64,000 bases of DNA from Escherichia coli (GTDB lineage Bacteria; Pseudomonadota; Gammaproteobacteria; Enterobacterales; Enterobacteriaceae): the NCBI RefSeq assembly GCF_009931435.1, contig NZ_CP043414.1, one strand, 5' to 3'. The notes beneath the pieces are model-generated. The model made no database searches. It saw only the letters and a program-made list of their open reading frames with translations, and had not been told where the DNA came from. The position numbers were made by a program, and so were the translations under genes. Each line of letters opens with the position of its first letter. Within the stretch, counting starts at the first letter, position 1. Below, piece by piece: positions 25,288 to 46,820 of the stretch.

Positions 25288-25584
25288 TTGTAAACTCCTT
25301 GTTAACGTGGTTAATTACTACTTACAATGACCTGCCGTTAATCCCAGACAGGCAGATGCAGCTCACTTCACGGAACCGCATCATTTTTCAGTATTTTTTA
25401 CATACAAACCGAGCTAGAATTTACGGTTGTCGTAAAAACTATTTTTAAAATCATTAAATCTCTTATTCAGCAATAACTTAATAATATATATCTGGATAAC
25501 TATACCCAACTGTTCAAAGTCCGTATTGCCTCCATAAAATGGCCAAAGCTGAATCATGAATAAATATTGTATTTATCCTTTCTG

Positions 25585-25603
25585 AATTATCATTTTGATA
25601 ATT
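25585..25603. promoter_or_regulatory. Candidate Fur box: perfect palindrome in the hcp-tssB divergent intergenic region
   Basis: aattatca ttt tgataatt is a perfect inverted repeat built from GATAAT-like hexamers in a very AT-rich 700 bp intergenic region. Confidence 0.4.
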
Positions 25604-25982
25604 TTTGAGATATTCCTTAAAAATACCCACTTACTCAATCACAAAACAAATATATAAACAAGCAATCATTAGATTAGCTTATGTTTAATGAAATTATTAT
25701 ATACTTCAATAAGATACATAAAAACTCTATATTTAAATTATTGCCATAATACACCTGACGCGAATTGCACAGGTTCACACAATCTATTTAACGCTTGCAG
25801 AATACCCCTCTTTACGATCGATAAAAAGTCCTTTTCTTATTTATTTTGAAGCGTAAAATGCGGGGTGATGAAGGAGTGGTGATTTTATTTTCACCGCCAT
25901 CAAGGCGGCATTTCCGATATTTTTTGCGGTACAAATATGCTGTGTTCATGGCCTGTACGAGATAACATGACGGATCACTTTT

Positions 25983-26483
25983 ATGAGCAAAAAATTTGAA
26001 GGCAGCGTCGCGCCTCGCGAGCGTATTAATATATCGTATGTCCCAAAAACAGATGGCCAGACGGCTGAAGTGGAACTTCCGCTTAACATGCTCGTTGTCG
26101 GCGATACCGGAAATACGCAGGAAACATCCTCACTGGATGAACGTCAGGCAGTTTCCGTTAACAAGCACAATTTCGGTGCAGTGATGGCTGAAGCAGCCAT
26201 TGGCCTCAATTTTACCGTCCCCGCCACGCTGAAGGGAAGCACAACGGACGATGAACTGAATGTGGCGCTGAATATCAAGTCACTGGATGATTTTTCACCA
26301 GATAGCGTGGCCCGGCAGGTTCCGGAAGTGAATAAATTGCTGGAATTACGTGAAGCACTGACTGCACTGAAGGGGCCGATGGGTAACCTTCCGGCATTCC
26401 GTACCCAGCTCCAGGCATTGCTGGAAAATGAAGAGTCCCGCGAGCAGTTGCTCAAAGAAATCGGCCAGGTGAGCAATAAATAA
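25983..26483 (+). CDS. tssB: T6SS contractile sheath small subunit TssB (VipA)
   Basis: 166 aa; typical TssB sequence; first gene of the plus-strand operon. Confidence 0.9.
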   Translation: MSKKFEGSVAPRERINISYVPKTDGQTAEVELPLNMLVVGDTGNTQETSSLDERQAVSVNKHNFGAVMAEAAIGLNFTVPATLKGSTTDDELNVALNIKSLDDFSPDSVARQVPEVNKLLELREALTALKGPMGNLPAFRTQLQALLENEESREQLLKEIGQVSNK

Positions 26484-26517
26484 CCACCACTATTTCATTA
26501 AACAGGGTTATCCAGGC

Positions 26518-26742
26518 ATGACGGCACACAAAAATATCTCCGGGACATACCACCTCTCTGTTGCAGACATTCTGCAGGTGGTTTACCAGGTATGTTTCAG
26601 CCCGTCCGTTGAAATCAACCAGGATGGTGTGGCTGCGCTGATTACAACACTGGATCGCCGTATCAGTGATCTATTGGATGAGATTATCCATTTTTGTGAG
26701 TTTCAGCAGAGCGCGTCGCACTGGCAGCGCGTACTTCACTGA
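26518..26742 (+). pseudogene. TssC-like N-terminal fragment (74 codons) between tssB and tssC
   Basis: Translation ...NQDGVAALITTLDRRISDLLDEIIHFCEFQQSASHWQRV parallels TssC residues ...NKLAVDSMIADIDERISRQMDVIIHAPAFQQVESFWRSL; fills an unusual 310 nt tssB-tssC gap. Confidence 0.45.
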
Positions 26743-26792
26743 CGGCGAAAAGCCGGTTTCAGAAACACAGCTAAAACAGAAGGATTTTCAGT

Positions 26793-28268
26793 ATGTCTTT
26801 ACAGGAAGAGGAACTCGTTTCCAGTCATGCCGGGCAGCCTGAGCAGGCATCGTCGCTGCTTGATCAAATCATGGCACAGACCCGTATTCAGCCCGGTTCG
26901 GAAGGTTATGACGTTGCCCGCCAGGGTGTGACAGCCTTTATTGCCAGCATCCTGCAATCCACTGCATCTGCCGAACCGGTCAATAAACTGGCCGTGGACA
27001 GCATGATTGCAGATATTGATGAACGCATCAGCCGCCAGATGGATGTCATCATCCATGCGCCTGCCTTTCAGCAGGTCGAGTCGTTCTGGCGCTCACTGAA
27101 AACCATGGTGGATCGCGTTGATTTCCGTGAAAACATCAAGGTCAACGTGCTTCATGTCACCAAGCAGGAACTTCTGGAAGACTTTGAGTTTGCGCCAGAA
27201 ATTATTCAGTCCGGATTTTATAAGCACGTTTATTCGTCCGGTTTCGGACAGTTTGGCGGTGAACCCATCGCTGCCGTGCTGGGCGCTTATGAGTTCAAAA
27301 ATACCGCGCCTGACATGAAACTGCTGCAATACGTCAGTGCCGTGGGCGCAATGGCGCACGCACCGTTCCTGTCCTCCGTTTCCCCGGAGTTTATGGGGCT
27401 GAACTCGTGGACCGAACTGCCTAATATCAAAGATCTTTATGCCATCTTTGAAGGTCCGGCCTACACCAAATGGCGCGCCCTGCGTGACTCGGAAGATTCG
27501 CGCTATTTAGGGCTTACGGCACCCCGCTTCCTGCTTCGCCAGCCCTATTCACCAACAGATAACCCTGTTAAGAACTTTAACTATTACGAAGATGTCAGCC
27601 AGAACCACGAAGATTATCTGTGGGGTAATACGGCCTGGATGCTGGCATGCAATATCGCAGACAGTTTTGCCAAATACCGCTGGTGTCCAAACATTATCGG
27701 TCCGCAAAGCGGCGGCGCAGTGAAAGATCTGCCGGTGCATCTGTTCGAAACGATGGGGCAGATTCAGGCCAAAATCCCAACCGAGGTGCTGGTCACCGAT
27801 CGCCGCGAATTTGAACTGGCTGAAGAGGGTTTTATCACCCTTACCATGCGTAAAGACTCTGATAATGCAGCCTTTTTCTCTGCAAACTCGGTACAAAAAC
27901 CGAAGCACTTTCCGGGAAAAGATGCAGAAACCAACTATAAGCTGGGTACGCAGCTTCCTTATCTCTTCATCATCAATCGGTTAGCGCACTACATCAAGGT
28001 GTTGCAGCGTGAACAACTGGGGTCATGGAAAGAAAGGAGCGACTTAGAAAGAGAGCTTAATACCTGGATCCGTCAGTATGTTGCCGACCAGGAAAACCCG
28101 CCTGCAGACGTGCGCAGCCGCAAACCTCTGCGCGCTGCCAAAGTTGAGGTTATGGATGTAGAAGGCGAACCCGGCTGGTACCAGGTTGCGCTAAGCGTGA
28201 GACCTCATTTTAAATTTATGGGGGCAAATTTTGAGCTTTCCCTGGTTGGCCGGTTAGACAGGGAGTAA
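26793..28268 (+). CDS. tssC: T6SS contractile sheath large subunit TssC (VipB)
   Basis: 491 aa; typical TssC sequence. Confidence 0.95.
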   Translation: MSLQEEELVSSHAGQPEQASSLLDQIMAQTRIQPGSEGYDVARQGVTAFIASILQSTASAEPVNKLAVDSMIADIDERISRQMDVIIHAPAFQQVESFWRSLKTMVDRVDFRENIKVNVLHVTKQELLEDFEFAPEIIQSGFYKHVYSSGFGQFGGEPIAAVLGAYEFKNTAPDMKLLQYVSAVGAMAHAPFLSSVSPEFMGLNSWTELPNIKDLYAIFEGPAYTKWRALRDSEDSRYLGLTAPRFLLRQPYSPTDNPVKNFNYYEDVSQNHEDYLWGNTAWMLACNIADSFAKYRWCPNIIGPQSGGAVKDLPVHLFETMGQIQAKIPTEVLVTDRREFELAEEGFITLTMRKDSDNAAFFSANSVQKPKHFPGKDAETNYKLGTQLPYLFIINRLAHYIKVLQREQLGSWKERSDLERELNTWIRQYVADQENPPADVRSRKPLRAAKVEVMDVEGEPGWYQVALSVRPHFKFMGANFELSLVGRLDRE

Positions 28269-28274
28269 CACACC

Positions 28275-28688
28275 ATGATACCGGATCGGGAAAGAACCAC
28301 AGGTTCTCTTTTTGAGCGTATGGAAGCCTCTTCGGCCAGAAACCGGCAGGGAGGCAGTATTCATTCGCTCAGGCAATCCATTCGCCAGAACCTACGAAAC
28401 ATTCTTAATACCCGGTCCGGTAGTTGCCGGGGTGCGCCTGAGCTGGGCATTGATGAACCGGAAGGGGCTGAAAACTTCCGCGAATCCATGAGTCGGGCCA
28501 TCGAGCAATGTATAGAACGCTATGAACCCCGGATCTCACACGCTGAAGTGCAGGCAGTGGTTTCATCCGCCTCCAGCCCGCTGGATATGACGTTTCATAT
28601 TACAGCCTGGGTGACATTTAACGAAACGCATGAGGTGCTTGAATTTGATATGGCACCGAATGGCAGCCAGCATTACCGGGTGGACTGA
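28275..28688 (+). CDS. tssE: T6SS baseplate protein TssE (gp25-like)
   Basis: 137 aa; gp25/lysozyme-like baseplate wedge family. Confidence 0.85.
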   Translation: MIPDRERTTGSLFERMEASSARNRQGGSIHSLRQSIRQNLRNILNTRSGSCRGAPELGIDEPEGAENFRESMSRAIEQCIERYEPRISHAEVQAVVSSASSPLDMTFHITAWVTFNETHEVLEFDMAPNGSQHYRVD

Positions 28689-28691
28689 CAG

Positions 28692-30542
28692 ATGGAATTT
28701 GAAGAACGCTATTTCCGGGAAGAACTCGATTACCTGCGCCAGCTCAGCAAGCTGCTGGCAACGGAAAAACCCCATCTGGCCCGCTTCCTGGCCGAAAAAG
28801 ATGCGGATCCGGATATTGAACGCCTGCTGGAAGGCGTGGCTTTTCTTACCGGCAATCTCCGTCAAAAAATTGAGGATGAATTCCCAGAACTGACGCACGG
28901 GCTTATCAAGATGCTGTGGCCTAATTACCTGCGTCCGGTTCCGGCAATGACCCTTATTGAATATACGCCGGATATGGATAAGTCTTCTGTGCCGGTGTTA
29001 ATCCCCCGTAATGAGCAGTTTACAACCAACGCCGGGGAAATCAGAGTCGATGAAGTGCTGCCCTCCGATGCTAAAAAGGAGGAGCCGCCTCCCTGTACCT
29101 TCACCCTCTGCCGGGATATCTGGCTGCTGCCCGTTCGCCTGGAGCAGATTGAAAACCGCAGTACGACCCGTAATGGTGTTATCAACATCACCTTTTCGGT
29201 CGCACCGGGAACGGACTTCCGCACGCTGGATCTGAACAAACTTCGCTTCTGGCTCGGCAATGACGACAACTATACCCGTGACCAGCTTTATTTATGGTTC
29301 TGTGAATACTTGCAGGGTGCCGACCTGACTGTGGGTGAACAGCATATTCGCCTGCCTGAGTTTATACTGAAAGCTGTCGGTTTTGAGCCGCAGGATGCCA
29401 TGCTGCCCTGGCCGAAAAACGTCCACAGCGGCTACCGGATCCTTCAGGAGTATTTCTGTTACCCGGATGCGTTTCTCTTTTTTGATCTTTGTGGTTGCCC
29501 GGCGTTACCTGACGGATTGCAGGCTGAATCCTTTACCCTGCAACTGCGTTTTTCGCGCCCATTGCCCGTGGACATCCGGTTGCGCCGCGACTCCCTGCGC
29601 CTGTATTGCGCGCCTGCCATTAATTTATTTATCCACCATGCAGAAGCCATCACGCTGGACAACCGGCGGGCAGACTATCCGCTGGTTCCCAGCCGCCATT
29701 ATCCGAAACATTACGATGTCTTTTCCGTTAACGGCGTGATAAGCCAGGTGCAGGATATGTTCAGGAAAAAAGATCTGGGGCGTCCTGTTTCGACGCAGGC
29801 CGCGCGCCAGTGGCCTGCCTTTGAAAGTTTCAGCCATCAGATGGAATACAGCCGGAAGCGGGAAGTGGTGTACTGGCATCACCGGACCAAAACATCCCTG
29901 TTCCATCGCGGCTTTGATCATACCCTTGCTTTTATACATGCTGATGGCAGTTATCCGTCAGACGAATCGCTGCTCAGTAATGAAGTGGTTTCGGTATCGC
30001 TGACCTGTACCAACCGTGAGCTTCCGTCACAAATTCGTTCCGGCGATATCACCGGCACAACCGGTAAAAATGCGGCTGTTGCTTCATTTCGCAACATTAC
30101 CCGCCCGACGCAACCACTCTGGCCGGTCATTGATGGCAGCCTGCACTGGTCCCTACTCTCCGCCATGAACCTGAATTATCTGTCATTACTAGATACGGAC
30201 GCGCTGAAGCAGGTCATCGCCAACTTTGATCGCCACGCAATCCATCATCCGCAGACGGCGCGGCTGTCACAACAAAAGCTGGATGCCATTGAGCGTCTGG
30301 AGACCCGCCCCGTTGATCGCCTGTTTACGGGTATTCCCGTCCGGGGGCTGGCCTCCACGCTGTATCTGCACCCGGAGCCGTTTGTCTGTGAAGGGGAAAT
30401 GTATCTGCTCGGTACGGTGCTTTCGCATTTTCTGTCGCTGTACGCCAGCGTTAACTCATTCCACATGCTGACCGTTGTGAACACAGAAAGCCAGGAGACA
30501 TGGAAATGGACGGAAAGAACCGGGCAGCATCCTCTTATCTGA
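28692..30542 (+). CDS. tssF: T6SS baseplate protein TssF (VasA)
   Basis: 616 aa; N-terminal YFREELDYLRQL...DPDIERLLEGVAFLTGNL typical of TssF. Confidence 0.9.
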   Translation: MEFEERYFREELDYLRQLSKLLATEKPHLARFLAEKDADPDIERLLEGVAFLTGNLRQKIEDEFPELTHGLIKMLWPNYLRPVPAMTLIEYTPDMDKSSVPVLIPRNEQFTTNAGEIRVDEVLPSDAKKEEPPPCTFTLCRDIWLLPVRLEQIENRSTTRNGVINITFSVAPGTDFRTLDLNKLRFWLGNDDNYTRDQLYLWFCEYLQGADLTVGEQHIRLPEFILKAVGFEPQDAMLPWPKNVHSGYRILQEYFCYPDAFLFFDLCGCPALPDGLQAESFTLQLRFSRPLPVDIRLRRDSLRLYCAPAINLFIHHAEAITLDNRRADYPLVPSRHYPKHYDVFSVNGVISQVQDMFRKKDLGRPVSTQAARQWPAFESFSHQMEYSRKREVVYWHHRTKTSLFHRGFDHTLAFIHADGSYPSDESLLSNEVVSVSLTCTNRELPSQIRSGDITGTTGKNAAVASFRNITRPTQPLWPVIDGSLHWSLLSAMNLNYLSLLDTDALKQVIANFDRHAIHHPQTARLSQQKLDAIERLETRPVDRLFTGIPVRGLASTLYLHPEPFVCEGEMYLLGTVLSHFLSLYASVNSFHMLTVVNTESQETWKWTERTGQHPLI

Positions 30543-31588
30543 GTCCGGGACATCCCCCGGCAGATAAAGAGCAGAATGATCCGCTGGCACAGGTTTTCCA
30601 TAACGCCTGCTCTTACAATTTTTTTGCGATGGCGGAGCTGTTGCACCGCCTGGCACAGGGTGAAAAGGGGACACCGGAATTATCCCTGCGCGATGATCCG
30701 GCACAGGAAACCCTGCGTTTCAGCGCCGATGCCAGCCTTGCCTTCCCGTGCAGTGATATCAGTGGGCTGAAACGGGATAAGTCAGGGGCATTCAGGATGA
30801 CCACCACCTTTATGGGGTTACAGGGGAGCCAGTCGCCTCTTCCCGGTTATTACCTGGATCACCTGGCCTGGAAAGCGGTACATGAACAAAGTCCGGTAGG
30901 CGATTTTCTGGATATGTTCAGCCACCGCCTGACCCAGTTTGTCTGGCATATCTGGCGTAAGTACCGCTATCACATCAGTTTTCGTAACGGCGGTGTGGAT
31001 GCGTTCTCGCAGCGCATGTACTCCCTTGTCGGGCTGGGCCACCGCCAGCTTCGCGATAAGCTGGCGATTAATCACAGCAAAATGCTGGCGTATTCCGGGA
31101 TCCTGGCAAATCCGGGACGATCCCCGGAAATCATCTGCGGCCTGGTGTCCCACTGTTTTGACTTGTCAGACGTGACGCTGCAAAACTGGCAACGTCGCAA
31201 GGTGGATATTGAACCGGATCAGCAAAACAGCCTGGGGAGCTATTCCCTTAAAAATGGCGAAAAACTGGCCGGAAGATCGGTACTGGGCAACTTTGTTCTG
31301 GGTACACGGGTGCCCGATCTCAGCGGAAAATTCCAGCTCAGTATTACCAGCCTGACCCGAAAACAGTTCCTCTCTTTTCTGCCGTCCGGCGAAAACTTCC
31401 TGCCACTGACGATGTTTGTGTCCTTCATCCTGCGCGATCAGCTTGCCTGGGACTTACATCTGGGGCTGGCACCGGAGCAGGTGGGCGCAATGCGCCTGGG
31501 CGATAACAAAAGTGCGCTGCTGGGCTGGACCAGCTTCCTCGGCACACCGGAAGAACGACCCTCAGTCACCATCAGGGTACGGTCGTAA
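30500..31588 (+). CDS. tssG: T6SS baseplate protein TssG (VasB); start ambiguous, overlaps tssF by 43 nt
   Basis: 362 aa; conserved NFFAMAELL region near the N-terminus. Confidence 0.85.
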   Translation: MEMDGKNRAASSYLSPGHPPADKEQNDPLAQVFHNACSYNFFAMAELLHRLAQGEKGTPELSLRDDPAQETLRFSADASLAFPCSDISGLKRDKSGAFRMTTTFMGLQGSQSPLPGYYLDHLAWKAVHEQSPVGDFLDMFSHRLTQFVWHIWRKYRYHISFRNGGVDAFSQRMYSLVGLGHRQLRDKLAINHSKMLAYSGILANPGRSPEIICGLVSHCFDLSDVTLQNWQRRKVDIEPDQQNSLGSYSLKNGEKLAGRSVLGNFVLGTRVPDLSGKFQLSITSLTRKQFLSFLPSGENFLPLTMFVSFILRDQLAWDLHLGLAPEQVGAMRLGDNKSALLGWTSFLGTPEERPSVTIRVRS

Positions 31589-31612
31589 ATTATGATAATC
31601 ACGGAGCAGAAT

Positions 31613-32893
31613 ATGCCGGAAGAGAAACTACAGACGCTTTCATTGCAGGTCATTAACGGCAGTGAGCTGGAAAGCGGGCGGGCGGCGCGCTGTCTGTTCA
31701 CGCAGCAGGGAAATGTCGGCCATGGCCCCGAATGCCACTGGTCGGTACAGGATCGTCAGCAGAGCATTCCGGCTCAGGCCTTTACCGTTATACTGCACGA
31801 TGGCACATTTTGTCTGCGCCCGCAGACGGCACAACTGTGGCTGAACCAGGCAAAAGTCACAGCAACATCAGACCTGATACAGCTGCGCCAGGGCGATGAG
31901 ATCCAGATAGGGCGTCTGATGGTGAGGGTTCATCTGAACCGGGGTGATATCCCCCATTACGATGAGGAAATGGCCACTCCCGAAACCATCGTCACCAATC
32001 GCGATATGCTCACGGATACCCTGCTGTCAACGGAGGGTGCGCCACACTATCCGGGAATGACTCACCGGCATCAGCTTGCTGACACCGTGGTAAACGGTTT
32101 TTCTGCCGATCCACTCCAGGCACTTCAGTCCGAAAGCCTGATTACCGCGGGCGATCCGCTTTCAGGCATTGCGGCTGTCCGGCCATCGGCACCGCTGTCC
32201 GATCCGGCAAGTAATGGGGGGATCAATACGCCGTTTATGGATCTGCCGCCCATTTATGCCAGCCCCGGCGAGCGTAATGATGACGTCTCTGTGGCAGAAA
32301 TGGCGCAACGCCACCTTGCGGTCACCCCCTTACTGCGCGGCCTTGGCGGCTCGCTTACCGTGAGCAATTCCGACGATGCGGATGATTTTCTGGAGGAGGC
32401 CGGACGCACGTTACAGGCCGCAATAAAAGGTCTGCTTGATTTGCAGCAGCAGCGTAACAGCCTCTCAGACAAACATTTGCGCCCGCTGGAAGATAACCCG
32501 CTGCGCCTGAACATGGATTACGCCACCGCGCTCGACGTGATGTTTGCCGAAGGTAAAAGTCCGGTACATCTGGCGGCTCCCGCCGCTGTCAGTGAAAGCC
32601 TGCGCAATGTCCGCCACCACGAAGAAGCTAACCGGGCGGCGATTGTGGAGTCGCTTCGTGTCCTGCTGGACGCCTTCTCACCACAAAATCTGCTGCGCCG
32701 CTTTGTGCAGTACCGCCGCAGCCATGAACTGCGCCAGCCGCTGGATGATGCCGGAGCATGGCAAATGTACAGCCATTATTACGAAGAGCTGGCCTCTGAT
32801 CGCCAGCAGGGGTTTGAGATGCTGTTTAACGAGGTCTACGCCCAGGTCTATGACCGGGTGCTTCGTGAAAAACAGCGGGAGCCGGAAGCATGA
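31613..32893 (+). CDS. tagH: T6SS FHA-domain protein TagH (Fha)
   Basis: ORF 31592..32893; probable start at the ATG at 31613 preceded by GGAG; N-terminal forkhead-associated fold. Confidence 0.8.
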   Translation: MPEEKLQTLSLQVINGSELESGRAARCLFTQQGNVGHGPECHWSVQDRQQSIPAQAFTVILHDGTFCLRPQTAQLWLNQAKVTATSDLIQLRQGDEIQIGRLMVRVHLNRGDIPHYDEEMATPETIVTNRDMLTDTLLSTEGAPHYPGMTHRHQLADTVVNGFSADPLQALQSESLITAGDPLSGIAAVRPSAPLSDPASNGGINTPFMDLPPIYASPGERNDDVSVAEMAQRHLAVTPLLRGLGGSLTVSNSDDADDFLEEAGRTLQAAIKGLLDLQQQRNSLSDKHLRPLEDNPLRLNMDYATALDVMFAEGKSPVHLAAPAAVSESLRNVRHHEEANRAAIVESLRVLLDAFSPQNLLRRFVQYRRSHELRQPLDDAGAWQMYSHYYEELASDRQQGFEMLFNEVYAQVYDRVLREKQREPEA

Positions 32894-33414
32894 ACAGGAA
32901 GGCGTTTCTGGCCTGCGTGCTGATGTGCGTCATATTAACCGGCTGCGAAACGGCGAAAAAAATCAGCGAGGTGATCAAAAACCCGGATATCCAGGTCGGG
33001 AGCCTGAAGGAGCAACCTTCGGAAATAACCGTCACCCTGCTGACTGAACCGGACACTAATACCAATGCGGAGGGTGAATCAGCCGCCGTGGATGTGCAAC
33101 TGGTGTACCTGACGGACGACTCAAAATTGCAGGCAGCCGACTATGACCAGATAGCCAGTACGCCGCTACCGGATGTGCTGGGTAAAAACTATATCGACCA
33201 CCAGGATTTCAACCTGTTGCCGGACACCATCAAAACCCTGCCGCTGGTAAAGCTGGATGAGAAAACGCAGTTTATTGGTGTCGTGGCCTATTTCTCCGAT
33301 GACCAGGCCACGGAATGGAAACAAATCGAGACGGTGGAAGGAACCGGCCACCATTACCGCCTGCTGGTGCATGTACGTCAAAGCAGCATCGAAATGAAAA
33401 AAGAGGATGAATAA
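32890..33414 (+). CDS. tssJ: T6SS outer-membrane lipoprotein TssJ (SciN/VasD)
   Basis: 174 aa; lipobox LTGC; overlaps the tagH stop. Confidence 0.85.
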   Translation: MNRKAFLACVLMCVILTGCETAKKISEVIKNPDIQVGSLKEQPSEITVTLLTEPDTNTNAEGESAAVDVQLVYLTDDSKLQAADYDQIASTPLPDVLGKNYIDHQDFNLLPDTIKTLPLVKLDEKTQFIGVVAYFSDDQATEWKQIETVEGTGHHYRLLVHVRQSSIEMKKEDE

Positions 33415-33416
33415 GT

Positions 33417-34748: not shown

Positions 34749-34752
34749 GACG

Positions 34753-35514
34753 ATGGATGAGGGGTCACTGTCTCTGCCACCATTTACCGGATACGACGAA
34801 AAAAGCCAGCGCGACTATCATCTCGCGCTTCGTGGCAACAGCCTGAATCCGATGATCGACGCAGCCACGCCACTCCTCGGTATGGTGATGCGCCTTTCAA
34901 CCATGAACAGCCAGACGATGCCGGAGCATCTTTTTGCACAGGTGGTGACGGATGTTCAGGCCGTGGAGCAACTGCTTCAGGAGCAGGGCTACGAACCGGG
35001 CGTGATTATCTCGTTTCGCTACATCCTCTGCACATTTATTGATGAAGCGGCGCTCGGTAACGGCTGGTCGAACAAGAACGAGTGGATCAAACAGTCATTG
35101 CTGGTCCATTTCCACAACGAAGCCTGGGGTGGCGAGAAAGTTTTCATCCTGCTGGAGCGCCTGATCCGTGAACCCAAACGTTACCAGGATCTGCTGGAAT
35201 TTCTCTGGCTCTGTTTTTCTCTGGGATTTCGCGGGCGCTACAAAGTGGCAGCACAGGATCAGGGGGAATTTGAGCAGATCTACCGCCGCCTGTACCACGT
35301 TCTGCATAAACTGCGCGGCGATGCCCCTTTCCCGCTGTTACACCAGGACAAAAAAACCCAGGGCGGGCGTTATCAGCTCATCAGTCGCCTGACCATTAAA
35401 CATATTTTTTGTGGTGGCGTTGTCGTGCTGGCGTTGTTTTACCTGTTCTATCTGTTGCGGCTGGACAGCCAGACGCAGGACATCCTGCACCAGCTAAACA
35501 AATTACTTCGATAA
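34753..35514 (+). CDS. tssL: T6SS membrane protein TssL (DotU family), short form without a peptidoglycan-binding extension
   Basis: 253 aa; DotU-like cytoplasmic domain with a single C-terminal transmembrane helix. Confidence 0.85.
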   Translation: MDEGSLSLPPFTGYDEKSQRDYHLALRGNSLNPMIDAATPLLGMVMRLSTMNSQTMPEHLFAQVVTDVQAVEQLLQEQGYEPGVIISFRYILCTFIDEAALGNGWSNKNEWIKQSLLVHFHNEAWGGEKVFILLERLIREPKRYQDLLEFLWLCFSLGFRGRYKVAAQDQGEFEQIYRRLYHVLHKLRGDAPFPLLHQDKKTQGGRYQLISRLTIKHIFCGGVVVLALFYLFYLLRLDSQTQDILHQLNKLLR

Positions 35515-35522
35515 GGACGTTT

Positions 35523-38282: not shown

Positions 38283-39022
38283 GCAGGTTGCGCGTTTTCC
38301 GGCAGACAGGATGGTTTATCGCGGGCCTGATGGCGGGCTTACCCGCCAGTGCCGCGCCCGCAGAAACATCGTCAGTGGCCGGTGTGGCGGTAGCTGTCGC
38401 CACAGCGACACCGCCGGATGCGACAGCCACGTTACAGGCCATGCGGTCCTGTCGCCAGGAGACGGCGGCGCTGGAGCGGCTTGACTGCTATGACCGCCTG
38501 CTGGCACCCCTTTCTCCGTCAGGGTTTGACGGGGCGCTGGTCAAAGCCGGTTTTGTGGGCGAGGCCTGGACCCGCGCCACAGAGCAGGAAAAACGCCGCC
38601 AGGGCAACACCACAGAGCTGCTGGTGACGCAGGTGCCGGGAGAACGCCCGACGGTGGTGGTAACCACCCCGGCTATCGGCCATGTTCCGCCTCGCCCGGT
38701 GCTGATGTTCAGCTGTGTGGACAATATCACCCGGATGCAGGTGGCGCTGGTGCACCCTCTGGATGTCCATGATATCGCCGTCACCCTGAATGCCGACAGC
38801 CGGGTATTGCGCAGCCACTGGTTTGTGCGCGAGAACGGCACCCTGCTGGAGTCCAGCCGGGGGCTGTCCGGGATTGATGAAATTAAGCAACTGTTCGGCG
38901 CAAAAACGCTGACGGTGGATACCGGCGCAGATAACGCCGCCGGAAAGCTGACCTTTAACATTGACGGGCTAGCAAGGGCGATTGCCCCCCTGCGCGATGC
39001 CTGCCACTGGGCGGGAGAATAA
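38279..39022 (+). CDS. T6SS-associated secreted protein (VasI-like)
   Basis: 247 aa with signal peptide; sits between clpV and tssA as VasI does in vas-type clusters. Confidence 0.55.
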   Translation: MSRLRVFRQTGWFIAGLMAGLPASAAPAETSSVAGVAVAVATATPPDATATLQAMRSCRQETAALERLDCYDRLLAPLSPSGFDGALVKAGFVGEAWTRATEQEKRRQGNTTELLVTQVPGERPTVVVTTPAIGHVPPRPVLMFSCVDNITRMQVALVHPLDVHDIAVTLNADSRVLRSHWFVRENGTLLESSRGLSGIDEIKQLFGAKTLTVDTGADNAAGKLTFNIDGLARAIAPLRDACHWAGE

Positions 39023-39026
39023 AAAT

Positions 39027-40442
39027 ATGGCAATGGACTTACGCGATCCGAATGTCTGGATATCGCACCTGCTGGAAAACCTGCCGGAAGAGAAACTGGC
39101 ATCGGCGCTGAAAGATGACAACCCGGACTGGGAGTATATCGACGGCGAAATCGTCAAACTGGGTTCACTGGCCCACAGCCAACTGGATATCCCGGAACTC
39201 CAGCGCCGGGGGCTGGTCATTCTGGCTTCGGAGAGTAAGGATTTTCGTCTGCTGGCACACCTGCTCAGAACCCTGCAACATGCCGGTGATCCACTGCTGG
39301 CACTGCGCCTGCTGGCGCTATACGTGGAACATTACTGGACTGTGGCCGCGCCGCAGAATATGGCGCATAAAAAACGCTTTGCCAGCCAGATCATTAAACG
39401 TTTTGAAACGGGTATTGAAGGCTTTTCACAGAACGCCGCCACCGCGCAGCGCGATGCACTATTAGGTGAACTGGCGAAACTGGCGCAGTGCTGGCAGTCA
39501 CATAACGCCCCGGAACTGGCAGAGGCTACTGATGATCTTTTTGCCCTGTACCAGCGTGCGTTTAATCGTGCGGCACCGGCTCCTGCCCACACTCCGGCGG
39601 CCTCCGGTAGTTCACCACAGACCACCGCCACGTCTGAAAGCGGCGTGACGCAAACCAGTGCTCCGGCTCCACAGATCGCCATCGACAGTCACGACGACAA
39701 AGCCTGGCGCGACACGCTGTTAAAAGTGGCGGCCATTTTATGTGAACGCCAGCCGGACTCGCCGCAGGGCTATCGCCTGCGCCGCCATGCCCTGTGGCAA
39801 TCCATCACCAGTACGCCCCAGGCGGAAAGCGATGGACGCCCCCCACTGGCTGCGGTCTCCGCCGATATGGTGGCAGATTACCATGCTCAGCTCGGTAGTG
39901 CCGATATGGCGCTGTGGCAGCAGGTGGAAAAAAGCGTACTGCTGGCACCCTACTGGCTGGACGGTCACTGCATTTCTGCACAGACGGCGCACCGTCTTGG
40001 CTATACCGCCGTGGCCGATGCCATCCGCGATGAAGTCGTTTCCTTTCTTGGCCGTCTGCCCGCGCTCGCTGATCTTCTGTTTAACGACCACACACCGTTT
40101 GTTTCTGAAAAAACGAAGCAATGGCTTGCAACTCAGCCAGGTAACCAGGCCGCGCCAGTCATACAGGTGAGTAATGAAGATATTCAGGCTGCGCGGTTGT
40201 GTTTTGATGAACAGGGGCTGGAAGCCGCCTTACGGTATCTGGATACGTTGCCCGCCGGTGAACCCCGCGACCAGTTTCACCGGCAGTATTTTGGCGCGCA
40301 GCTTATGGAAGAGGCGGGGCTGGTACAGCTTGCGCAGCAGCAGTACCGGATGTTGTTCAGGATGGGATTGCAGATGATGGTGGCAGACTGGGAGCCGTCC
40401 CTGCTTGAGCAGCTAGAACAAAAATTCACGGCAGAACAATAA
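39027..40442 (+). CDS. tssA: T6SS protein TssA (ImpA N-terminal domain; VasJ-like)
   Basis: ORF 38982..40442 trimmed to the ATG at 39027 (MAMDLRDPNVWISHL...); ImpA_N-type N-terminus. Confidence 0.85.
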   Translation: MAMDLRDPNVWISHLLENLPEEKLASALKDDNPDWEYIDGEIVKLGSLAHSQLDIPELQRRGLVILASESKDFRLLAHLLRTLQHAGDPLLALRLLALYVEHYWTVAAPQNMAHKKRFASQIIKRFETGIEGFSQNAATAQRDALLGELAKLAQCWQSHNAPELAEATDDLFALYQRAFNRAAPAPAHTPAASGSSPQTTATSESGVTQTSAPAPQIAIDSHDDKAWRDTLLKVAAILCERQPDSPQGYRLRRHALWQSITSTPQAESDGRPPLAAVSADMVADYHAQLGSADMALWQQVEKSVLLAPYWLDGHCISAQTAHRLGYTAVADAIRDEVVSFLGRLPALADLLFNDHTPFVSEKTKQWLATQPGNQAAPVIQVSNEDIQAARLCFDEQGLEAALRYLDTLPAGEPRDQFHRQYFGAQLMEEAGLVQLAQQQYRMLFRMGLQMMVADWEPSLLEQLEQKFTAEQ

Positions 40443-40460
40443 AAGAGAACAGGAGTTTTT

Positions 40461-43400
40461 GTGTTCAGATTACCAACACCCCGACTATTCAGCGGACTCA
40501 AATCAGCCCTGCGCCCGGCGATGCCCCGGTTTAAAGTTTCTGCATTCTGGCTGCTGATACTGGCGTGGATTTTCCTGCTGGTATGGATCTGGTGGAAAGG
40601 CCCGGCATGGACGCTGGATGAAGAGCAGTGGCTCAAACCACTGGCGAACCGCTGGCTGGCAACGGCGGCGTGGGGGATTATTGCCCTGGTGTGGCTTACC
40701 GTCCGGGTAATGAAGCGCCTGCAACAGCTTGAAAAAATGCAAAAGCAACAGCGCGAGGAAGCCGTTGATCCGCTCAGTGTGGAACTGAACGCCCAGCAGC
40801 GTTACCTCGACCGCTGGCTGCTGCGCCTGCAACGCCATCTCGACAACCGCCGTTTCCTGTGGCAGTTGCCGTGGTATATGGTCATCGGTCCTGTGGGCAG
40901 TGGCAAAACGACACTGCTGCGCGAGGGGTTTCCGTCAGACATTATTTATGCCCCGGAGGGCGCGCACGGCGCAGAACAACGCCTGTACCTCACGCCCCAT
41001 GTCGGTAAACAGGCGGTGATCTTTGATATCGACGGCACACTCTGCGCTCCCGCTGATGCGGATATCCTGCATCGCCGTCTGTGGGAACATGCCCTCGGCT
41101 GGCTGAAGGAAAAGCGCGCGCGCCAGCCGCTGAACGGGATTATTCTGACACTCGATTTACCCGATCTGCTGACCGCAGACAAACGCCGCCGCGAGCATCT
41201 GTTACAGACGCTGCGCAGCCGCTTACAGGATATACGCCAGCATCTTCATTGCCAGTTACCGGTTTACGTGGTACTGACCCGGCTTGATTTATTGCAGGGT
41301 TTTGCCGCCCTGTTTCAGTCACTGAACAGACAGGATCGCGATGCGATTCTGGGTGTTACGTTCACCCGCCGTGCTCATGAAAATGATGACTGGCGAACAG
41401 AGTTGAATGCTTTCTGGCAGACATGGGCGGATCGAATGAATCTGGCGTTGCCGGATCTGATGGTCACCCAGACTCACACCCGCGCGTCTTTATTTAGTTT
41501 TTCCCGCCAGATGCAGGGAAGCCGTGAACCGCTGATATCACTGCTGGAGGGTCTGCTTGACGGCGAAAATATGAACGTGATGCTGCGTGGTGTCTATCTC
41601 ACCTCTTCGCTTCAGCGTGGACAGATGGATGATATATTCACCCAGTCTGCTGCCCGCCAGTACCGACTGGGCAATAACCCACTGGCGTCCTGGCCTCTGG
41701 TGGACACCGCGCCTTATTTCACCCGCAGCCTGTTCCCGCAGGCATTACTCGCAGAGCCTAATCTGGCAACAGAGAGCCGCGCCTGGCTGATGCGTTCCCG
41801 TCGCCGCCTGACGGTTTTCTCTGCCACAGGCGGCGTGGCGGCACTGCTGCTCATCACCGGCTGGAATCACTATTACAACGGTAACTATCAGTCCGGCATC
41901 ACCGTGCTTAAGCAGGCCAAAGCCTTTATGGACGTGCCGCCTCCGCAGGGGGAAGATGACTTTGGTAACCTACAACTGCCGCTGCTGAACCCGGTACGCG
42001 ATGCCACACTGGCCTATGGCGACTGGGGTGACCGCAGCCGCCTGGCCGATATGGGACTGTACCAGGGGCGACGTATCGGGCCTTATGTGGAACAGACCTA
42101 TCTGCAACTGCTGGAGCAGCGTTACCTGCCCTCGCTGTTTAACGGGCTGGTCAAAGCGATGAACGCCGCACCGCCGGAGAGTGAGGAAAAACTCGCGGTG
42201 CTGCGCGTGATGCGAATGCTGGAGGACAAAAGCGGACGCAACAATGAGGTGGTGAAGCAGTATATGGCAAAACGCTGGAGCGAAAAGTTCCACGGACAGC
42301 GCGATATCCAGACACAACTGATGTCCCATCTTGACTACGCGCTGGCTCATACTGACTGGCATGCAGAGCGTCAGGCGGGCGACGGTGATGCCATCAGCCG
42401 CTGGACGCCATATGACAAGCCTGTTGCGACAGCACAGAAAGAACTGAGCAAACTGCCTGTCTACCAGCGGGTTTACCAGAGCCTGAAAACGCGGGCGCTG
42501 GGCGTTCTTCCTGCTGACCTCAATCTGCGTGACCAGGTAGGGCCAACCTTTGACCAGGTGTTTACATCTGCCGATGATAACAAACTGGTTGTTCCACAGT
42601 TTCTTACCCGTTACGGCCTGCAAAGCTATTTTGTAAAACAGCGCGATGAACTGGTTGAACTGACGGCGATGGATTCCTGGGTACTCAACCTCACCCGCAG
42701 CGTGAAATACAGTGACGCCGACCGCGCGGAAATTCAGCGCCAGTTGACCGAGCAGTATATCAGCGACTACACCGCCACCTGGCGGGCCGGGATGGACAAT
42801 CTCAATATCCGCAATTTTGAGTCCATTGGACAACTGACTGGCACTCTGGAGCAGGTTATCAGCGGCGACCAGCCTTTGCAGCGGGCGCTGACCGTGCTGC
42901 GTGACAACACACAGCCAGGCGTCTTTTCTGAAAAACTCTCTGCCAAAGAGCGGGATGAGGCCCTGGCAGAGCCGGATTACCAGTTACTCACCCGCCTCGG
43001 GCATGAATTCGCCCCGGAAAACAGTACCCTGACAGTACAGAAAGACAAAGAAAGCACGATGCAGGCCGTATACCAGCAGCTCACCGAGTTACACCGCTAC
43101 CTGCTGGCAATCCAGAACGCGCCTGTACCAGGGAGATCGGCGCTGAAAGCCGTGCAGTTAAGGCTTGATCAGAACTGCAGCGATCCAATATTCGCCACCC
43201 GCCAGATGGCAAAAACACTGCCTGCTCCGCTCAACCGCTGGGTAGGCAGGCTGGCTGACCAGGCCTGGCATGTGGTGATGGTGGAAGCCGTTCACTATAT
43301 GGAAGTGGACTGGCGCGACAGCGTGGTGAAACCGTTTAACGAGCAACTGGCAAATAACTATCCGTTTAATCCACGTTCTGCACAGGATGCCTCACTGGAT

Positions 43401-43985
43401 GCCTTCGAACGATTCTTTAAACCGGATGGCGTACTGGATACCTTCTACCAGCAGAACCTGAAACTGTTTATCGACAATGATCTGAGCCTGGAAGACGGCG
43501 ATAACAGCGTCATTATCCGCGAAGATATTATTGCGCAACTGGAAACCGCGCAGAAAATCCGTGACATCTTCTTCAGCAAACAGAACGGTCTGGGAACATC
43601 CTTTGCCGTGGAAACGGTATCGCTTTCCGGCAACAAACGCCGCAGCGTACTGAACCTTGACGGCCAGTTAGTCGATTACAGCCAGGGCCGTAACTATACC
43701 GCCCATCTGGTCTGGCCTAACAATATGCGCGAAGGCAACGAAAGCAAACTGACGCTGGTTGGTGCCAGCGGCGGCGCACCGCGCAGTATCAGCTTCAGCG
43801 GGCCGTGGGCGCAGTTCCGCCTGTTCGGGGCCGGACAACTGACCGGAGTACAGGATGGCAACTTTACCGTGCGCTTTAGCGTGGACGGTGGCGCGATGAC
43901 CTACCGTGTGCATACCGACACCGAGGATAACCCGTTCAGCGGTGGGTTGTTCAGCCAGTTTGGTCTGTCAGACACACTGTACTGA
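40461..43985 (+). CDS. tssM: T6SS membrane core protein TssM (IcmF)
   Basis: 1174 aa; GTG start with AGGAG upstream; N-terminal transmembrane helices, Walker A GPVGSGKTT, IcmF-like periplasmic domain. Confidence 0.95.
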   Translation: MFRLPTPRLFSGLKSALRPAMPRFKVSAFWLLILAWIFLLVWIWWKGPAWTLDEEQWLKPLANRWLATAAWGIIALVWLTVRVMKRLQQLEKMQKQQREEAVDPLSVELNAQQRYLDRWLLRLQRHLDNRRFLWQLPWYMVIGPVGSGKTTLLREGFPSDIIYAPEGAHGAEQRLYLTPHVGKQAVIFDIDGTLCAPADADILHRRLWEHALGWLKEKRARQPLNGIILTLDLPDLLTADKRRREHLLQTLRSRLQDIRQHLHCQLPVYVVLTRLDLLQGFAALFQSLNRQDRDAILGVTFTRRAHENDDWRTELNAFWQTWADRMNLALPDLMVTQTHTRASLFSFSRQMQGSREPLISLLEGLLDGENMNVMLRGVYLTSSLQRGQMDDIFTQSAARQYRLGNNPLASWPLVDTAPYFTRSLFPQALLAEPNLATESRAWLMRSRRRLTVFSATGGVAALLLITGWNHYYNGNYQSGITVLKQAKAFMDVPPPQGEDDFGNLQLPLLNPVRDATLAYGDWGDRSRLADMGLYQGRRIGPYVEQTYLQLLEQRYLPSLFNGLVKAMNAAPPESEEKLAVLRVMRMLEDKSGRNNEVVKQYMAKRWSEKFHGQRDIQTQLMSHLDYALAHTDWHAERQAGDGDAISRWTPYDKPVATAQKELSKLPVYQRVYQSLKTRALGVLPADLNLRDQVGPTFDQVFTSADDNKLVVPQFLTRYGLQSYFVKQRDELVELTAMDSWVLNLTRSVKYSDADRAEIQRQLTEQYISDYTATWRAGMDNLNIRNFESIGQLTGTLEQVISGDQPLQRALTVLRDNTQPGVFSEKLSAKERDEALAEPDYQLLTRLGHEFAPENSTLTVQKDKESTMQAVYQQLTELHRYLLAIQNAPVPGRSALKAVQLRLDQNCSDPIFATRQMAKTLPAPLNRWVGRLADQAWHVVMVEAVHYMEVDWRDSVVKPFNEQLANNYPFNPRSAQDASLDAFERFFKPDGVLDTFYQQNLKLFIDNDLSLEDGDNSVIIREDIIAQLETAQKIRDIFFSKQNGLGTSFAVETVSLSGNKRRSVLNLDGQLVDYSQGRNYTAHLVWPNNMREGNESKLTLVGASGGAPRSISFSGPWAQFRLFGAGQLTGVQDGNFTVRFSVDGGAMTYRVHTDTEDNPFSGGLFSQFGLSDTLY

Positions 43986-43995
43986 GGAGGCAGGG

Positions 43996-45348
43996 ATGAA
44001 TAGTAACGTACTGACACAAACTATCGTTACCGGCAGTGACCCGCGCGGGCTGCCGGAATTCAGCGCCATCCGCGAGGAAATAAACAAAGCCAGCCACCCG
44101 TCACAGCCTGAGCTGAACTGGAAACTGGTGGAGTCGCTGGCGCTGGCGATTTTTAAAGCTAACGGTGTGGATTTACACACCGCCACCTACTATACGCTTG
44201 CACGGACACGGACACAGGGACTGGCGGGCTTTTGCGAAGGTGCGGAACTGCTGGCGGCAATGGTAAGCCACGACTGGGATAAGTTCTGGCCGCAGGGCGG
44301 CCCGGCGCGTACTGAAATGCTGGACTGGTTTAACTCCCGAACCGGCAATATTCTGCGTCAGCAAATCTCCTTTGCGGAATCCGACCTACCACTGATCTAC
44401 CGCACGGAGCGGGCATTGCAGCTTATCTGCGACAAACTCCAGCAGGTAGAGCTGAAGCGCGTTCCGCGCGTGGAGAATCTGCTCTATTTTATGCAGAACA
44501 CGCGTAAACGGCTTGAACCCCAGCCGAAGAGTAACGCCGAGAACACCTCACAGACCACGGTCAGAACGCTGATTTATGCACCGGAAACAATGGCTTCCTC
44601 CACGCCAGAAGCAGTAGTGCCTCCCCTGCCCGACCTGCCCGAGATGAAAGTGGAAGTGCGCAGTCTGTCAGAAAATCCCCCACAGGCCAGTGTGATGAAG
44701 CAAGGCAGTACGGTAAGAGGGTTTATCGCAGGGATCGTCTGTTCAGTGGCTGTCGCCTCAGCATTGTGGTGGTGGCAGGTCTATCCGGTGCAGCAGCAAC
44801 TGTTACAGGTTAACGACACCGCGCAGGGCGCAGCAACGGTGTGGATGGCCTCACCTGAACTCGAAAACTATGAGCGCAGGTTGCAACAGCTTCTTGGCGT
44901 CTCCCCGGTACAACCGCTGGAAACCGGAATGCAGATGATGCGTGTTGCCGACAGTCGCTGGCCGGAAAGCCTGCAACAGCAACAGGCCTCGACACAATGG
45001 AATGAGGCACTCAAAACCCGCGCACAGAGTAGCCCGCAGTTGCGTGGCTGGTTGCAGACCCGCCAGGACTTACATGCTTTTGCAGATCTCGTGATGCAGC
45101 GCGAGAAAGAGGGACTAACCCTTTCCTATATCAAAAATGTCATCTGGCAGGCGGAGCGGGGACTGGGGCAGGAAACACCCCTGGAATCCCTGCTGACGCA
45201 GTACCAGGATGCCCGTGCACAGAAGCAGAATACAGATGCGCTGGAAAAACAAATTAATGAGCGACTCGAAGGCGTGTTAAGCCGCTGGCTGCTGCTGAAG
45301 AATAACGTCATGGCAGAGGCGGCAACCGGGACCACGACCGGAAAATAA
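43996..45348 (+). CDS. TssA-like ImpA_N-domain membrane protein (VasL-like accessory)
   Basis: ORF 43906..45348 trimmed to the ATG at 43996 (MNSNVLTQTIV...); ImpA_N-like N-terminus, central transmembrane helix FIAGIVCSVAVASALWWW, coiled-coil-like C-terminus. Confidence 0.65.
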   Translation: MNSNVLTQTIVTGSDPRGLPEFSAIREEINKASHPSQPELNWKLVESLALAIFKANGVDLHTATYYTLARTRTQGLAGFCEGAELLAAMVSHDWDKFWPQGGPARTEMLDWFNSRTGNILRQQISFAESDLPLIYRTERALQLICDKLQQVELKRVPRVENLLYFMQNTRKRLEPQPKSNAENTSQTTVRTLIYAPETMASSTPEAVVPPLPDLPEMKVEVRSLSENPPQASVMKQGSTVRGFIAGIVCSVAVASALWWWQVYPVQQQLLQVNDTAQGAATVWMASPELENYERRLQQLLGVSPVQPLETGMQMMRVADSRWPESLQQQQASTQWNEALKTRAQSSPQLRGWLQTRQDLHAFADLVMQREKEGLTLSYIKNVIWQAERGLGQETPLESLLTQYQDARAQKQNTDALEKQINERLEGVLSRWLLLKNNVMAEAATGTTTGK

Positions 45349-46811: not shown

Positions 46812-46820
46812 GGATTAACT

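What the first reader, a model, noticed from the sequence alone, without database searches (positions are those of the whole stretch)
25983..45348. vas-type core gene order lacking the sigma-54 activator
The order tssB-tssC-tssE-tssF-tssG-fha-tssJ-tssK-tssL-clpV-(vasI-like)-tssA-tssM-(vasL-like) mirrors the Vibrio cholerae vas cluster as I recall it, except that clpV runs straight into the vasI-like gene with no vasH. TssL is the short form with no peptidoglycan-binding domain, and no TagL-like anchor is evident.
Basis: partly seen in the sequence, partly recalled or inferred. Interest (0 to 1): 0.4.

Follow-up and report, generated by a model that had tools for sequence, protein, structure and literature searches.

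The report
Ordinary E. coli T6SS-2 gene cluster
This is the common, already described type VI secretion gene cluster of Escherichia coli next to the aspV tRNA gene; it lacks the Vibrio regulator VasH and a cell-wall anchor, as is normal for this lineage.

Summary
Window 25983-45348 (+) holds 14 intact, tightly packed genes: tssB, tssC, tssE, tssF, tssG, tagH (FHA), tssJ, tssK, tssL, clpV/tssH, vasI (tagO), tssA, tssM and a vasL/ImpA_N gene. The clpV stop codon overlaps the vasI start codon by 4 nt.

No sigma-54 activator domain, GAFTGA motif or VasH remnant occurs anywhere in the 64 kb. No oriented -24/-12 promoter lies in the cluster's intergenic regions. No cluster protein has a peptidoglycan-binding domain.

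None of this is unusual. The window is E. coli chromosome (fadE-ivy-yafV ... tRNA-Asp-dnaQ), and this is the aspV-linked T6SS-2 (subclass T6SSi1). The same clpV-vasI junction is contiguous in 2723 of 5426 complete E. coli genomes. ClpV also abuts VasI in 47 of 80 VasI-anchored loci from other Enterobacterales, Pasteurellales and Orbales.

The EHEC counterpart is published as functional and H-NS-repressed. V. cholerae itself is a published exception that lacks a peptidoglycan anchor. In V. cholerae, VasH drives only the hcp operons and vgrG3, not the structural operon.

Most likely control here is sigma-70 promoters in the 33% GC hcp/tssB intergenic region, silenced by H-NS.

One side observation: many relatives keep a roughly 265-aa "mini-VasH" without the AAA+ domain.

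Verdict: already known, low interest.

The parts
25983..26483 (+). tssB (VipA-like small sheath subunit), 166 aa
   Evidence: PF05591 2e-51; RefSeq tssB in L001
26518..26742 (+). 74-aa ORF resembling TssC residues 50-102 (annotated hypothetical protein in RefSeq)
   Evidence: BLASTP against TssC: 34% identity, E 2e-8. Weak VipB hit of 17 bits. Annotated as WP_000123969.1 in L001.
26793..28268 (+). tssC (VipB-like large sheath subunit), 491 aa
   Evidence: PF05943 2e-126 and PF18945 4e-45
28275..28688 (+). tssE (gp25-like baseplate protein)
   Evidence: PF04965 6e-16
28692..30542 (+). tssF
   Evidence: PF05947 3e-130
30500..31588 (+). tssG
   Evidence: PF06996 4e-87
31592..32893 (+). tagH (FHA-domain accessory protein; VasC equivalent)
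   Evidence: PF00498 + PF20232; TIGR03354 1e-101
32890..33414 (+). tssJ lipoprotein
   Evidence: PF12790 2e-23; TIGR03352
33417..34748 (+). tssK
   Evidence: PF05936 1e-142
34753..35514 (+). tssL, short C-tail-anchored form, 253 aa (hydrophobic, presumably transmembrane, stretch at about residues 218-235, then an 18-residue tail)
   Evidence: DotU domain covers residues 33-234. It aligns only to positions 37-266 of the 438-position long-form model NF005444. Sequence read.
35523..38282 (+). clpV/tssH AAA+ ATPase, 919 aa; its stop codon overlaps the vasI start codon
   Evidence: TIGR03345 1125 bits; junction sequence
38279..39022 (+). vasI / tagO, 247 aa, with a hydrophobic N-terminal leader and four invariant cysteines; likely periplasmic
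39027..40442 (+). tssA (VasJ type)
   Evidence: PF16989 + PF06812; TIGR03362 3e-149
40551..43985 (+). tssM (IcmF-like, Walker A motif present)
   Evidence: TIGR03348 2e-283; GPVGSGKT at 40887
43996..45348 (+). vasL-type gene (ImpA_N + VasL domains; VCA0121 / TagA-like accessory protein)
   Evidence: PF12486 5e-23 and PF06812 7e-20
25288..25982 (.). Divergent hcp/tssB control region, 695 bp, 32.8% GC, with no -24/-12 element
   Evidence: GC content; sigma-54 scans; sigma-70-like hexamers at chance frequency
24769..25287 (-). hcp (tssD), divergent from tssB
   Evidence: PF05638 5e-31
22418..24559 (-). vgrG (tssI)
   Evidence: Phage_GPD, Gp5_trimer_C and Phage_base_V domains
18071..22342 (-). Rhs core protein downstream of vgrG (probable cargo toxin); the small ORF 17628-18074 follows it
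   Evidence: RHS_repeat 6e-75, DUF6531 and RHS domains
45372..45854 (+). Second hcp, directly after vasL
   Evidence: PF05638 8e-24
48542..48618 (-). tRNA-Asp (aspV) marking the right edge of the island
   Evidence: ARAGORN; same context in L001 and L085

Best explanation
The region is the structural operon of the E. coli aspV-linked type VI secretion system, called T6SS-2 in the E. coli literature and T6SSi1 in the general scheme (the V. cholerae vas type).

Shown:
- Fourteen intact genes lie in one tightly coupled + strand array. Gene-to-gene gaps run from -43 to +50 nt, except 108 nt before tssM.
- hcp-vgrG-rhs is transcribed divergently upstream, and a second hcp follows downstream.
- No sigma-54 enhancer-binding protein is encoded, and no oriented -24/-12 promoter element is present in the cluster's intergenic regions.

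Inferred: transcription starts from sigma-70-type promoters in the AT-rich (33% GC) 695-bp hcp/tssB intergenic region. That region is silenced by H-NS and relieved by unknown signals, as published for the EHEC EDL933 counterpart.

Inferred: the absence of vasH is a lineage trait, not a lesion. In V. cholerae, VasH/RpoN drive only the hcp operons and vgrG3, not the structural operon. A vas-type operon can therefore work without VasH once hcp has a sigma-54-independent promoter.

Inferred: the envelope complex TssJ-TssL-TssM is not tied to peptidoglycan by any cluster-encoded domain, as in V. cholerae. Any anchoring would need housekeeping proteins.
For: - Domain content and order.
- Junctions and GC content.
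- No bEBP motif in 64 kb.
- No VasH remnant by tblastn.
- Sigma-54 consensus: 37 matches in the window against 43 expected. None lies in the right orientation in any cluster intergenic region.
- Species and locus: fadE-ivy-yafV on the left, tRNA-Asp-dnaQ-rnhA on the right, matching RefSeq E. coli annotation with the same T6SS gene names and no regulator. The housekeeping flank is 99.8% identical to E. coli 2020CK-00188.
- Frequency: the cluster matches 3542 of 5426 complete E. coli genomes, 2029 of them over at least 80% of its length. The 1-kb clpV-vasI junction is contiguous in 2723 genomes.
- Other genera: ClpV abuts VasI in 47 of 80 VasI-anchored loci.
- A vasH-containing arrangement (ClpV, a 523-aa GAFTGA EBP, then VasI) exists in a distant relative, L082.
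- Literature: T6SS2 = T6SSi1 (PMC12282107). T6SS-2 has tagO next to tssH and lies beside an rhs gene (PMC10562709). The EHEC aspV T6SS is functional and H-NS-repressed (PMC5363993). VasH/RpoN control the hcp operons and vgrG3 but not the main cluster (PMC3439928). V. cholerae lacks a peptidoglycan-binding domain (PMC8253398).
Against: - The promoters were not located. Sigma-70-like hexamers in the control region occur at chance frequency (5 found against 4.3 expected).
- H-NS control is carried over from EHEC EDL933 and was not tested for this strain.
- Only 64 kb of the genome is visible, so a distant regulator cannot be excluded.
- i1 membership rests on shared accessory genes, synteny and the literature. 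No reference phylogeny was built.
- The nearest sequenced relative carries a deleted, non-functional version of the cluster, so the system is dispensable and often decays.
Confidence: 0.9

Rival explanations
1. vasH was lost by a recent, strain-specific deletion, leaving a regulatory orphan that can no longer be expressed.
For: V. cholerae (PMC3166118) and the distant locus L082 carry a full EBP between clpV and vasI. Some ancestor therefore probably had one.
Against: - The identical junction is found in 2723 complete E. coli genomes and in 47 loci from other genera.
- The clpV stop and vasI start overlap by 4 nt, with no scar.
- No remnant is detected by tblastn.
- The EHEC counterpart secretes Hcp (PMC5363993).
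Confidence: 0.02
2. An orphan sigma-54 enhancer-binding protein encoded elsewhere in the genome replaces VasH and drives the hcp and tssB promoters.
For: By general knowledge, E. coli encodes about a dozen bEBPs outside this window. Only 64 kb could be inspected.
Against: No GG-N10-GC element scoring above 5 of 12 consensus positions lies in the right orientation in the hcp/tssB, vgrG-hcp, tssA-tssM or vasL-hcp spacers. Matches across the whole window fall below the chance expectation.
Confidence: 0.05
3. The cluster is a decaying, non-functional relic in this strain.
For: - The closest genome (2020CK-00188) has an rhs-tagH fusion deletion and a frameshifted tssM.
- Strain 2013C-4282 has a frameshifted vasL.
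- PMC12282107 reports many incomplete T6SSi1 clusters.
Against: In the window all 14 ORFs are open. Profile coverage is full-length or nearly so for the signature domains. hcp, vgrG and rhs are also intact.
Confidence: 0.1

Closest known systems
E. coli T6SS-2 (= T6SSi1), the aspV-linked island of EHEC O157:H7 EDL933 (z0243-z0275), APEC O1 and STEC O104:H4
   Same: - Same chromosomal site (yafV ... tRNA-Asp-dnaQ).
- Same gene names and order in RefSeq annotation.
- 98-99% DNA identity to many E. coli genomes.
- tagO/vasI lies directly after tssH.
- rhs and vgrG sit beside the cluster.
   Different: Only strain-level variation. This includes the rhs toxin tips, the low-GC genes after the second hcp (45897-47288) and a second rhs module. 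The vasI allele is 90-95% identical to most E. coli alleles.
Vibrio cholerae vas cluster (VCA0107-VCA0123)
   Same: - Collinear order: vipA-vipB-(tssE,F,G)-fha-tssJ-tssK-vasF-clpV-[vasH]-VCA0118 (VasI)-VCA0119 (TssA)-vasK-VCA0121 (VasL).
- FHA protein with no kinase or phosphatase in the cluster.
- Short TssL and no peptidoglycan-binding protein.
   Different: - No vasH (VCA0117).
- No VCA0122-like gene was noted after vasL. This was not searched for specifically.
- hcp and vgrG-rhs are inside the island rather than in auxiliary clusters.
- No sigma-54 promoter was found at hcp.
EAEC Sci-1 (E. coli T6SS-1 = T6SSi2)
   Same: It has the same 13 core Tss functions and occurs in the same species.
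   Different: By the literature, Sci-1 has TagL as a peptidoglycan anchor. By my own recollection, not checked here, it also has a different gene order and no VasI or VasL. The window has no TagL or OmpA-like domain.
VasI-type clusters of Yersinia, Serratia, Photorhabdus, Proteus, Providencia and Morganella
   Same: Same order: TssF-G-TagH-J-K-L-ClpV ... VasI-TssA-TssM-VasL.
   Different: These keep a 262-274-aa gene between clpV and vasI. It has a VasH-like N-terminal domain and an HTH_8 domain but no AAA+ module. The window has nothing in that slot.

Membership tests
Type VI secretion system, subclass i1 (vas type; E. coli T6SS-2) | Complete set of core components TssA-TssM | tested here: met
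   TssA, B, C, E, F, G, H, J, K, L and M lie in 25983-45348. Hcp (TssD) is at 24769-25287 and 45372-45854. VgrG (TssI) is at 22418-24559.
Type VI secretion system, subclass i1 (vas type; E. coli T6SS-2) | vas-type accessory genes VasI/TagO, VasL (ImpA_N + VasL) and TagH, in the vas order | tested here: met
   PF11319/TIGR03360, PF12486 + PF06812 and TIGR03354 hits. The order was compared with VCA0107-0121 from PMC3166118.
Type VI secretion system, subclass i1 (vas type; E. coli T6SS-2) | Placement in the i1 clade of a TssB/TssC (or core-protein) phylogeny with reference systems | not tested
   No reference set of classified systems was available. The assignment rests on the literature (PMC12282107, PMC10562709) and on near-identity to E. 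coli clusters annotated the same way.
Type VI secretion system, subclass i1 (vas type; E. coli T6SS-2) | Insertion at aspV tRNA between yafV and dnaQ (E. coli T6SS-2 island) | tested here: met
   tRNA-Asp at 48542-48618. The flanks were named by synteny with the annotated loci L001 and L085. The EHEC island is described as aspV-associated.
Sigma-54 / enhancer-binding-protein-regulated T6SS (VasH, Sfa2 type) | In-cluster bEBP with a Sigma54_activat AAA+ domain and GAFTGA loop | tested here: not met
   No PF00158 or PF02954 hit in any cluster protein. No GAFTGA motif in six frames of the 64 kb. tblastn with VasH gives E >= 0.095.
Sigma-54 / enhancer-binding-protein-regulated T6SS (VasH, Sfa2 type) | -24/-12 (GG-N10-GC) promoter upstream of hcp or the structural operon | tested here: not met
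   No correctly oriented element scores above 5 of 12 in the cluster spacers. Window-wide matches number 37 against 43 expected.
Peptidoglycan-anchored T6SS (evolved TssL, TagL, TagP, TagN, TagW) | OmpA/Pal/MotB-like or other peptidoglycan-binding domain in TssL or an accessory cluster protein | tested here: not met
   No such Pfam hit at E <= 0.001 in any cluster protein, nor in the other island ORFs scanned. TssL ends 18 residues after its hydrophobic stretch. It covers only positions 37-266 of the 438-position long-form model. VasI is a beta-sandwich like IalB, not an OmpA-like fold.

The most novel reading that the evidence does not exclude
The empty clpV-vasI junction may be the end-point of a stepwise decay of VasH across the gammaproteobacterial VasI-type lineage. 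The proposed steps are:
1. A full GAFTGA EBP (L082, V. cholerae).
2. An EBP with a degenerate GAFTGA loop (Enterobacter soli, L075).
3. An AAA+-less "mini-VasH" of about 265 aa that keeps the N-terminal domain and the Fis-type HTH (31 loci: Yersinia, Serratia, Photorhabdus, Proteus, Providencia, Morganella, Trabulsiella and others).
4. Nothing in the slot (Escherichia/Citrobacter clade, Pasteurellaceae, Gilliamella/Budvicia clade).

If this is real and undescribed, mini-VasH would be a sigma-54-independent T6SS regulator. The E. coli cluster would then represent full hand-over of control to global regulators. This concerns the relatives more than the window itself.
Probability: 0.4. Interest if true: 0.35.

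Novelty: already known. Interest (0 to 1): 0.08.

Why it matters
It matters little. The result places the window in E. coli and identifies the cluster as the well-studied aspV T6SS-2/i1 island. It also shows that the two "missing" features, VasH and a peptidoglycan anchor, are normal for this lineage, so they should not be flagged as anomalies in a genome scan. The only forward-looking value is comparative. The graded loss of VasH among related clusters suggests how a dedicated sigma-54 circuit was replaced by global (H-NS-type) control in enteric bacteria.

Tried and rejected
- I tried a 60-sequence VasI alignment as the anchor for the genome scan. A 15-sequence alignment worked, but its pattern did not reach Vibrio or Aeromonas. 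The V. cholerae order therefore comes from the literature, and the vasH-containing arrangement comes from one metagenomic locus (L082).
- Bernard et al. 2011 (PMC3133059), on sigma-54 and bEBP regulation of T6SS clusters, is not held.
- My first GG/GC scan used a wrong offset. It was redone correctly.
- The sigma-70 promoter scan of the control region gave only chance-level matches, so no promoter is assigned.
- A literature search for VasI/TagO function returned mostly unrelated papers. A search for a truncated VasH in Yersinia found nothing relevant.
- A strain-specific deletion of vasH was considered and rejected.
Full report
**What is there**

The order is tssB, tssC, tssE, tssF, tssG, tagH (FHA), tssJ, tssK, tssL, clpV/tssH, vasI (also called tagO), tssA, tssM, and a gene with ImpA_N and VasL domains.

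E-values for the signature domain of each protein run from 6e-16 (TssE) to 2e-283 (TssM). Profile coverage is full-length or nearly so, so the cluster is real and intact.

Gene junctions are tight, from -43 to +50 nt, with 108 nt before tssM. The clpV stop overlaps the vasI start by 4 nt (ATGA at 38279-38282).

The mechanical ORF starts for clpV, tssA, tssM and vasL are upstream extensions. The RefSeq-equivalent starts are 35523, 39027, 40551 and 43996.

Upstream on the minus strand lie hcp (24769-25287), vgrG (22418-24559) and two Rhs modules (18071-22342 and 11951-16207). Downstream lie a second hcp (45372-45854) and two low-GC ORFs with no family match.

**Where it is from**

The flanks are fadE-ivy-yafV on the left and tRNA-Asp-dnaQ-rnhA-gloB-mltD and an rrn operon on the right.

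The housekeeping flank is 99.8% identical to E. coli 2020CK-00188 and 95-99% identical to essentially all 5426 complete E. coli genomes.

The cluster itself matches 3542 genomes, 2029 of them over at least 80% of its length. RefSeq annotates the same gene series with no regulator.

This is the aspV-linked island:
- It is described in EHEC EDL933 as a 37-kb aspV-associated T6SS that is functional and H-NS-repressed (PMC5363993).
- It is called T6SS-2 in the E. coli nomenclature, where tagO lies next to tssH beside an rhs gene (PMC10562709).
- It corresponds to subclass T6SSi1, which is broadly distributed across E. coli phylogroups (PMC12282107).

**The missing sigma-54 activator**

- No cluster protein hits Sigma54_activat or HTH_8.
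- A six-frame scan of all 64 kb finds no GAFTGA-type motif. The loose GE[STAP]G[TSVA]GK Walker A pattern matches only ClpV. The other Walker A motifs in real ORFs are ClpV's second site, one in TssM and one in an ABC ATPase near 63233.
- tblastn with a genuine VasH (523 aa with GAFTGA, from locus L082) and with eleven VasH-derived proteins from relatives gives only chance-level hits (best E = 0.095).
- The sigma-54 consensus TGGCAC-N5-TTGCW with up to 2 mismatches occurs 37 times against 43 expected, and never in the hcp/tssB spacer.
- Requiring the invariant GG/GC dinucleotides, no correctly oriented element scores above 5 of 12 in any cluster spacer.

**Is the absence unusual? No**

The 1-kb clpV-vasI-tssA junction is contiguous in 2723 of 5426 complete E. 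coli genomes.

A scan of one genome per bacterial species, anchored on a VasI alignment, returned 80 loci from Enterobacterales, Pasteurellales and Orbales. All have the same order TssE/F-G-TagH-J-K-L-ClpV-[slot]-VasI-TssA-TssM-VasL.
- In 47 loci ClpV abuts VasI, as in the window.
- In 31 loci the slot holds a 262-274-aa gene.
- In one locus (Enterobacter soli, L075) the slot holds a 479-aa EBP-like gene.
- One locus could not be classified.

The short proteins match only HTH_8 in Pfam (about 3e-5). The L075 protein matches Sigma54_activat (52 bits), but its GAFTGA loop reads NVSGSA. The short proteins align to the N-terminal 170 residues and the C-terminal HTH of the L075 protein and skip its AAA+ core.

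A more distant VasI homologue (33% identity, locus L082) sits after ClpV and a canonical 523-aa EBP with GAFTGA. This is the V. cholerae arrangement: VCA0116 clpV, VCA0117 vasH, VCA0118 (PMC3166118).

A neighbour-joining ClpV tree rooted on L082 gives the following picture:
- The Escherichia/Citrobacter/Buttiauxella/Lelliottia/Rahnella "empty" clade is nested among mini-VasH clades.
- Separate empty clades occur in Pasteurellaceae and in Gilliamella/Budvicia/Pragia.

The tree has no bootstrap support, so this is indicative only. It suggests that vasH loss is old, recurrent and lineage-typical.

**The missing peptidoglycan anchor**

- TssL is 253 aa. DotU covers residues 33-234. A single hydrophobic (presumably transmembrane) stretch lies near 218-235, followed by 18 residues.
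- TssL aligns only to positions 37-266 of the 438-position long-form DotU model.
- No OmpA, PG_binding or LysM domain is found in any cluster protein or in the other island ORFs scanned.
- This is not a departure from the prototype. The literature names V. cholerae and Edwardsiella tarda as the notable exceptions without a peptidoglycan-binding domain (PMC8253398).
- mltD at 51593-52951 is a housekeeping neighbour outside the island.

**How it most likely works**

Shown: a single tightly coupled structural operon, a divergent hcp-vgrG-rhs unit and a 695-bp, 32.8% GC control region with no sigma-54 element.

From the literature:
- In V. cholerae V52, VasH and RpoN activate only the hcp operons and vgrG3, not the main cluster (PMC3439928).
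- The EHEC counterpart of this cluster is silent in vitro and derepressed in an hns mutant (PMC5363993).

Inferred: sigma-70 promoters in the AT-rich spacer are silenced by H-NS and need no dedicated activator. Once hcp sits under such a promoter inside the island, VasH is superfluous. I could not locate the promoters, because hexamer matches occur at chance frequency.

**Rivals**

- A recent strain-specific deletion is excluded by the frequency of the junction.
- An orphan bEBP acting from elsewhere is unlikely without a -24/-12 site, but it cannot be excluded from 64 kb.
- A decaying relic is possible in principle. The nearest genome has an rhs-tagH fusion deletion and a frameshifted tssM. 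In the window, however, every gene is open with full-length or near full-length profile matches.

**Verdict**

The feature is the ordinary, already described E. coli T6SS-2/T6SSi1 cluster. Interest is low. The graded VasH decay in relatives is the only mildly new lead, and it lies outside the window.

Noticed in passing
L033-L081 (e.g. L044:9124-9930 Yersinia pestis, L060:9118-9909 Proteus mirabilis, L075:8493-9944 Enterobacter soli): 31 of 80 VasI-anchored loci carry a 262-274-aa "mini-VasH" between clpV and vasI. It has a VasH-like N-terminal domain and a Fis-type HTH_8 but no AAA+/sigma-54 module. One locus (L075) has a full-length EBP whose GAFTGA loop is degenerate (NVSGSA). None of the 80 has a canonical GAFTGA EBP. 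I found no paper describing this.
   Followed up: partly
window 26518-26742 (+): A 74-aa ORF between tssB and tssC is homologous to TssC residues 50-102 (34% identity, E 2e-8). RefSeq annotates it only as a hypothetical protein. It could be a relic of a partial tssC duplication or a small sheath-related protein.
   Followed up: partly
window 45897-47288 (+): Two ORFs of 304 aa and 155 aa lie directly after the second hcp, in DNA of about 37% GC. Neither has a Pfam or NCBIfam match, and RefSeq names the second ykfM. This may be an Hcp-linked effector/immunity pair. The content at this position differs between E. coli strains (compare L001).
   Followed up: no
window 16331-17365 (-): A 344-aa PBP_like_2 (PstS-like periplasmic binding protein) gene lies between the two Rhs modules. 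This is an odd passenger for a T6SS/Rhs island.
   Followed up: no
window 10030-22342 (-): Two tandem Rhs core genes (1418 and 1423 aa) each end in low-GC DNA, followed by a small ORF (11547-11951 and 17628-18074), typical of toxin tip plus immunity. The tip of the vgrG-proximal Rhs has a weak Lnb_N hit (4e-6). An ISAs1-family transposase gene (10030-11103) marks the left edge of the island next to yafV.
   Followed up: no
L085 (E. coli 2020CK-00188, closest genome): The nearest complete genome (99.8-99.9% identity in the flank and in vasI) has lost hcp, vgrG and tssB through tssG in a deletion that joins an rhs fragment to a truncated tagH. It also has a frameshifted tssM. The window's strain keeps the intact version.
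   Followed up: partly
[not shown]
   Followed up: partly
L002 and L004: Contigs labelled as Collinsella and Bacillota MAGs carry an E. coli-like clpV-vasI-tssA segment (VasI 94-96% identical). These are almost certainly mis-binned Enterobacteriaceae contigs.
   Followed up: no
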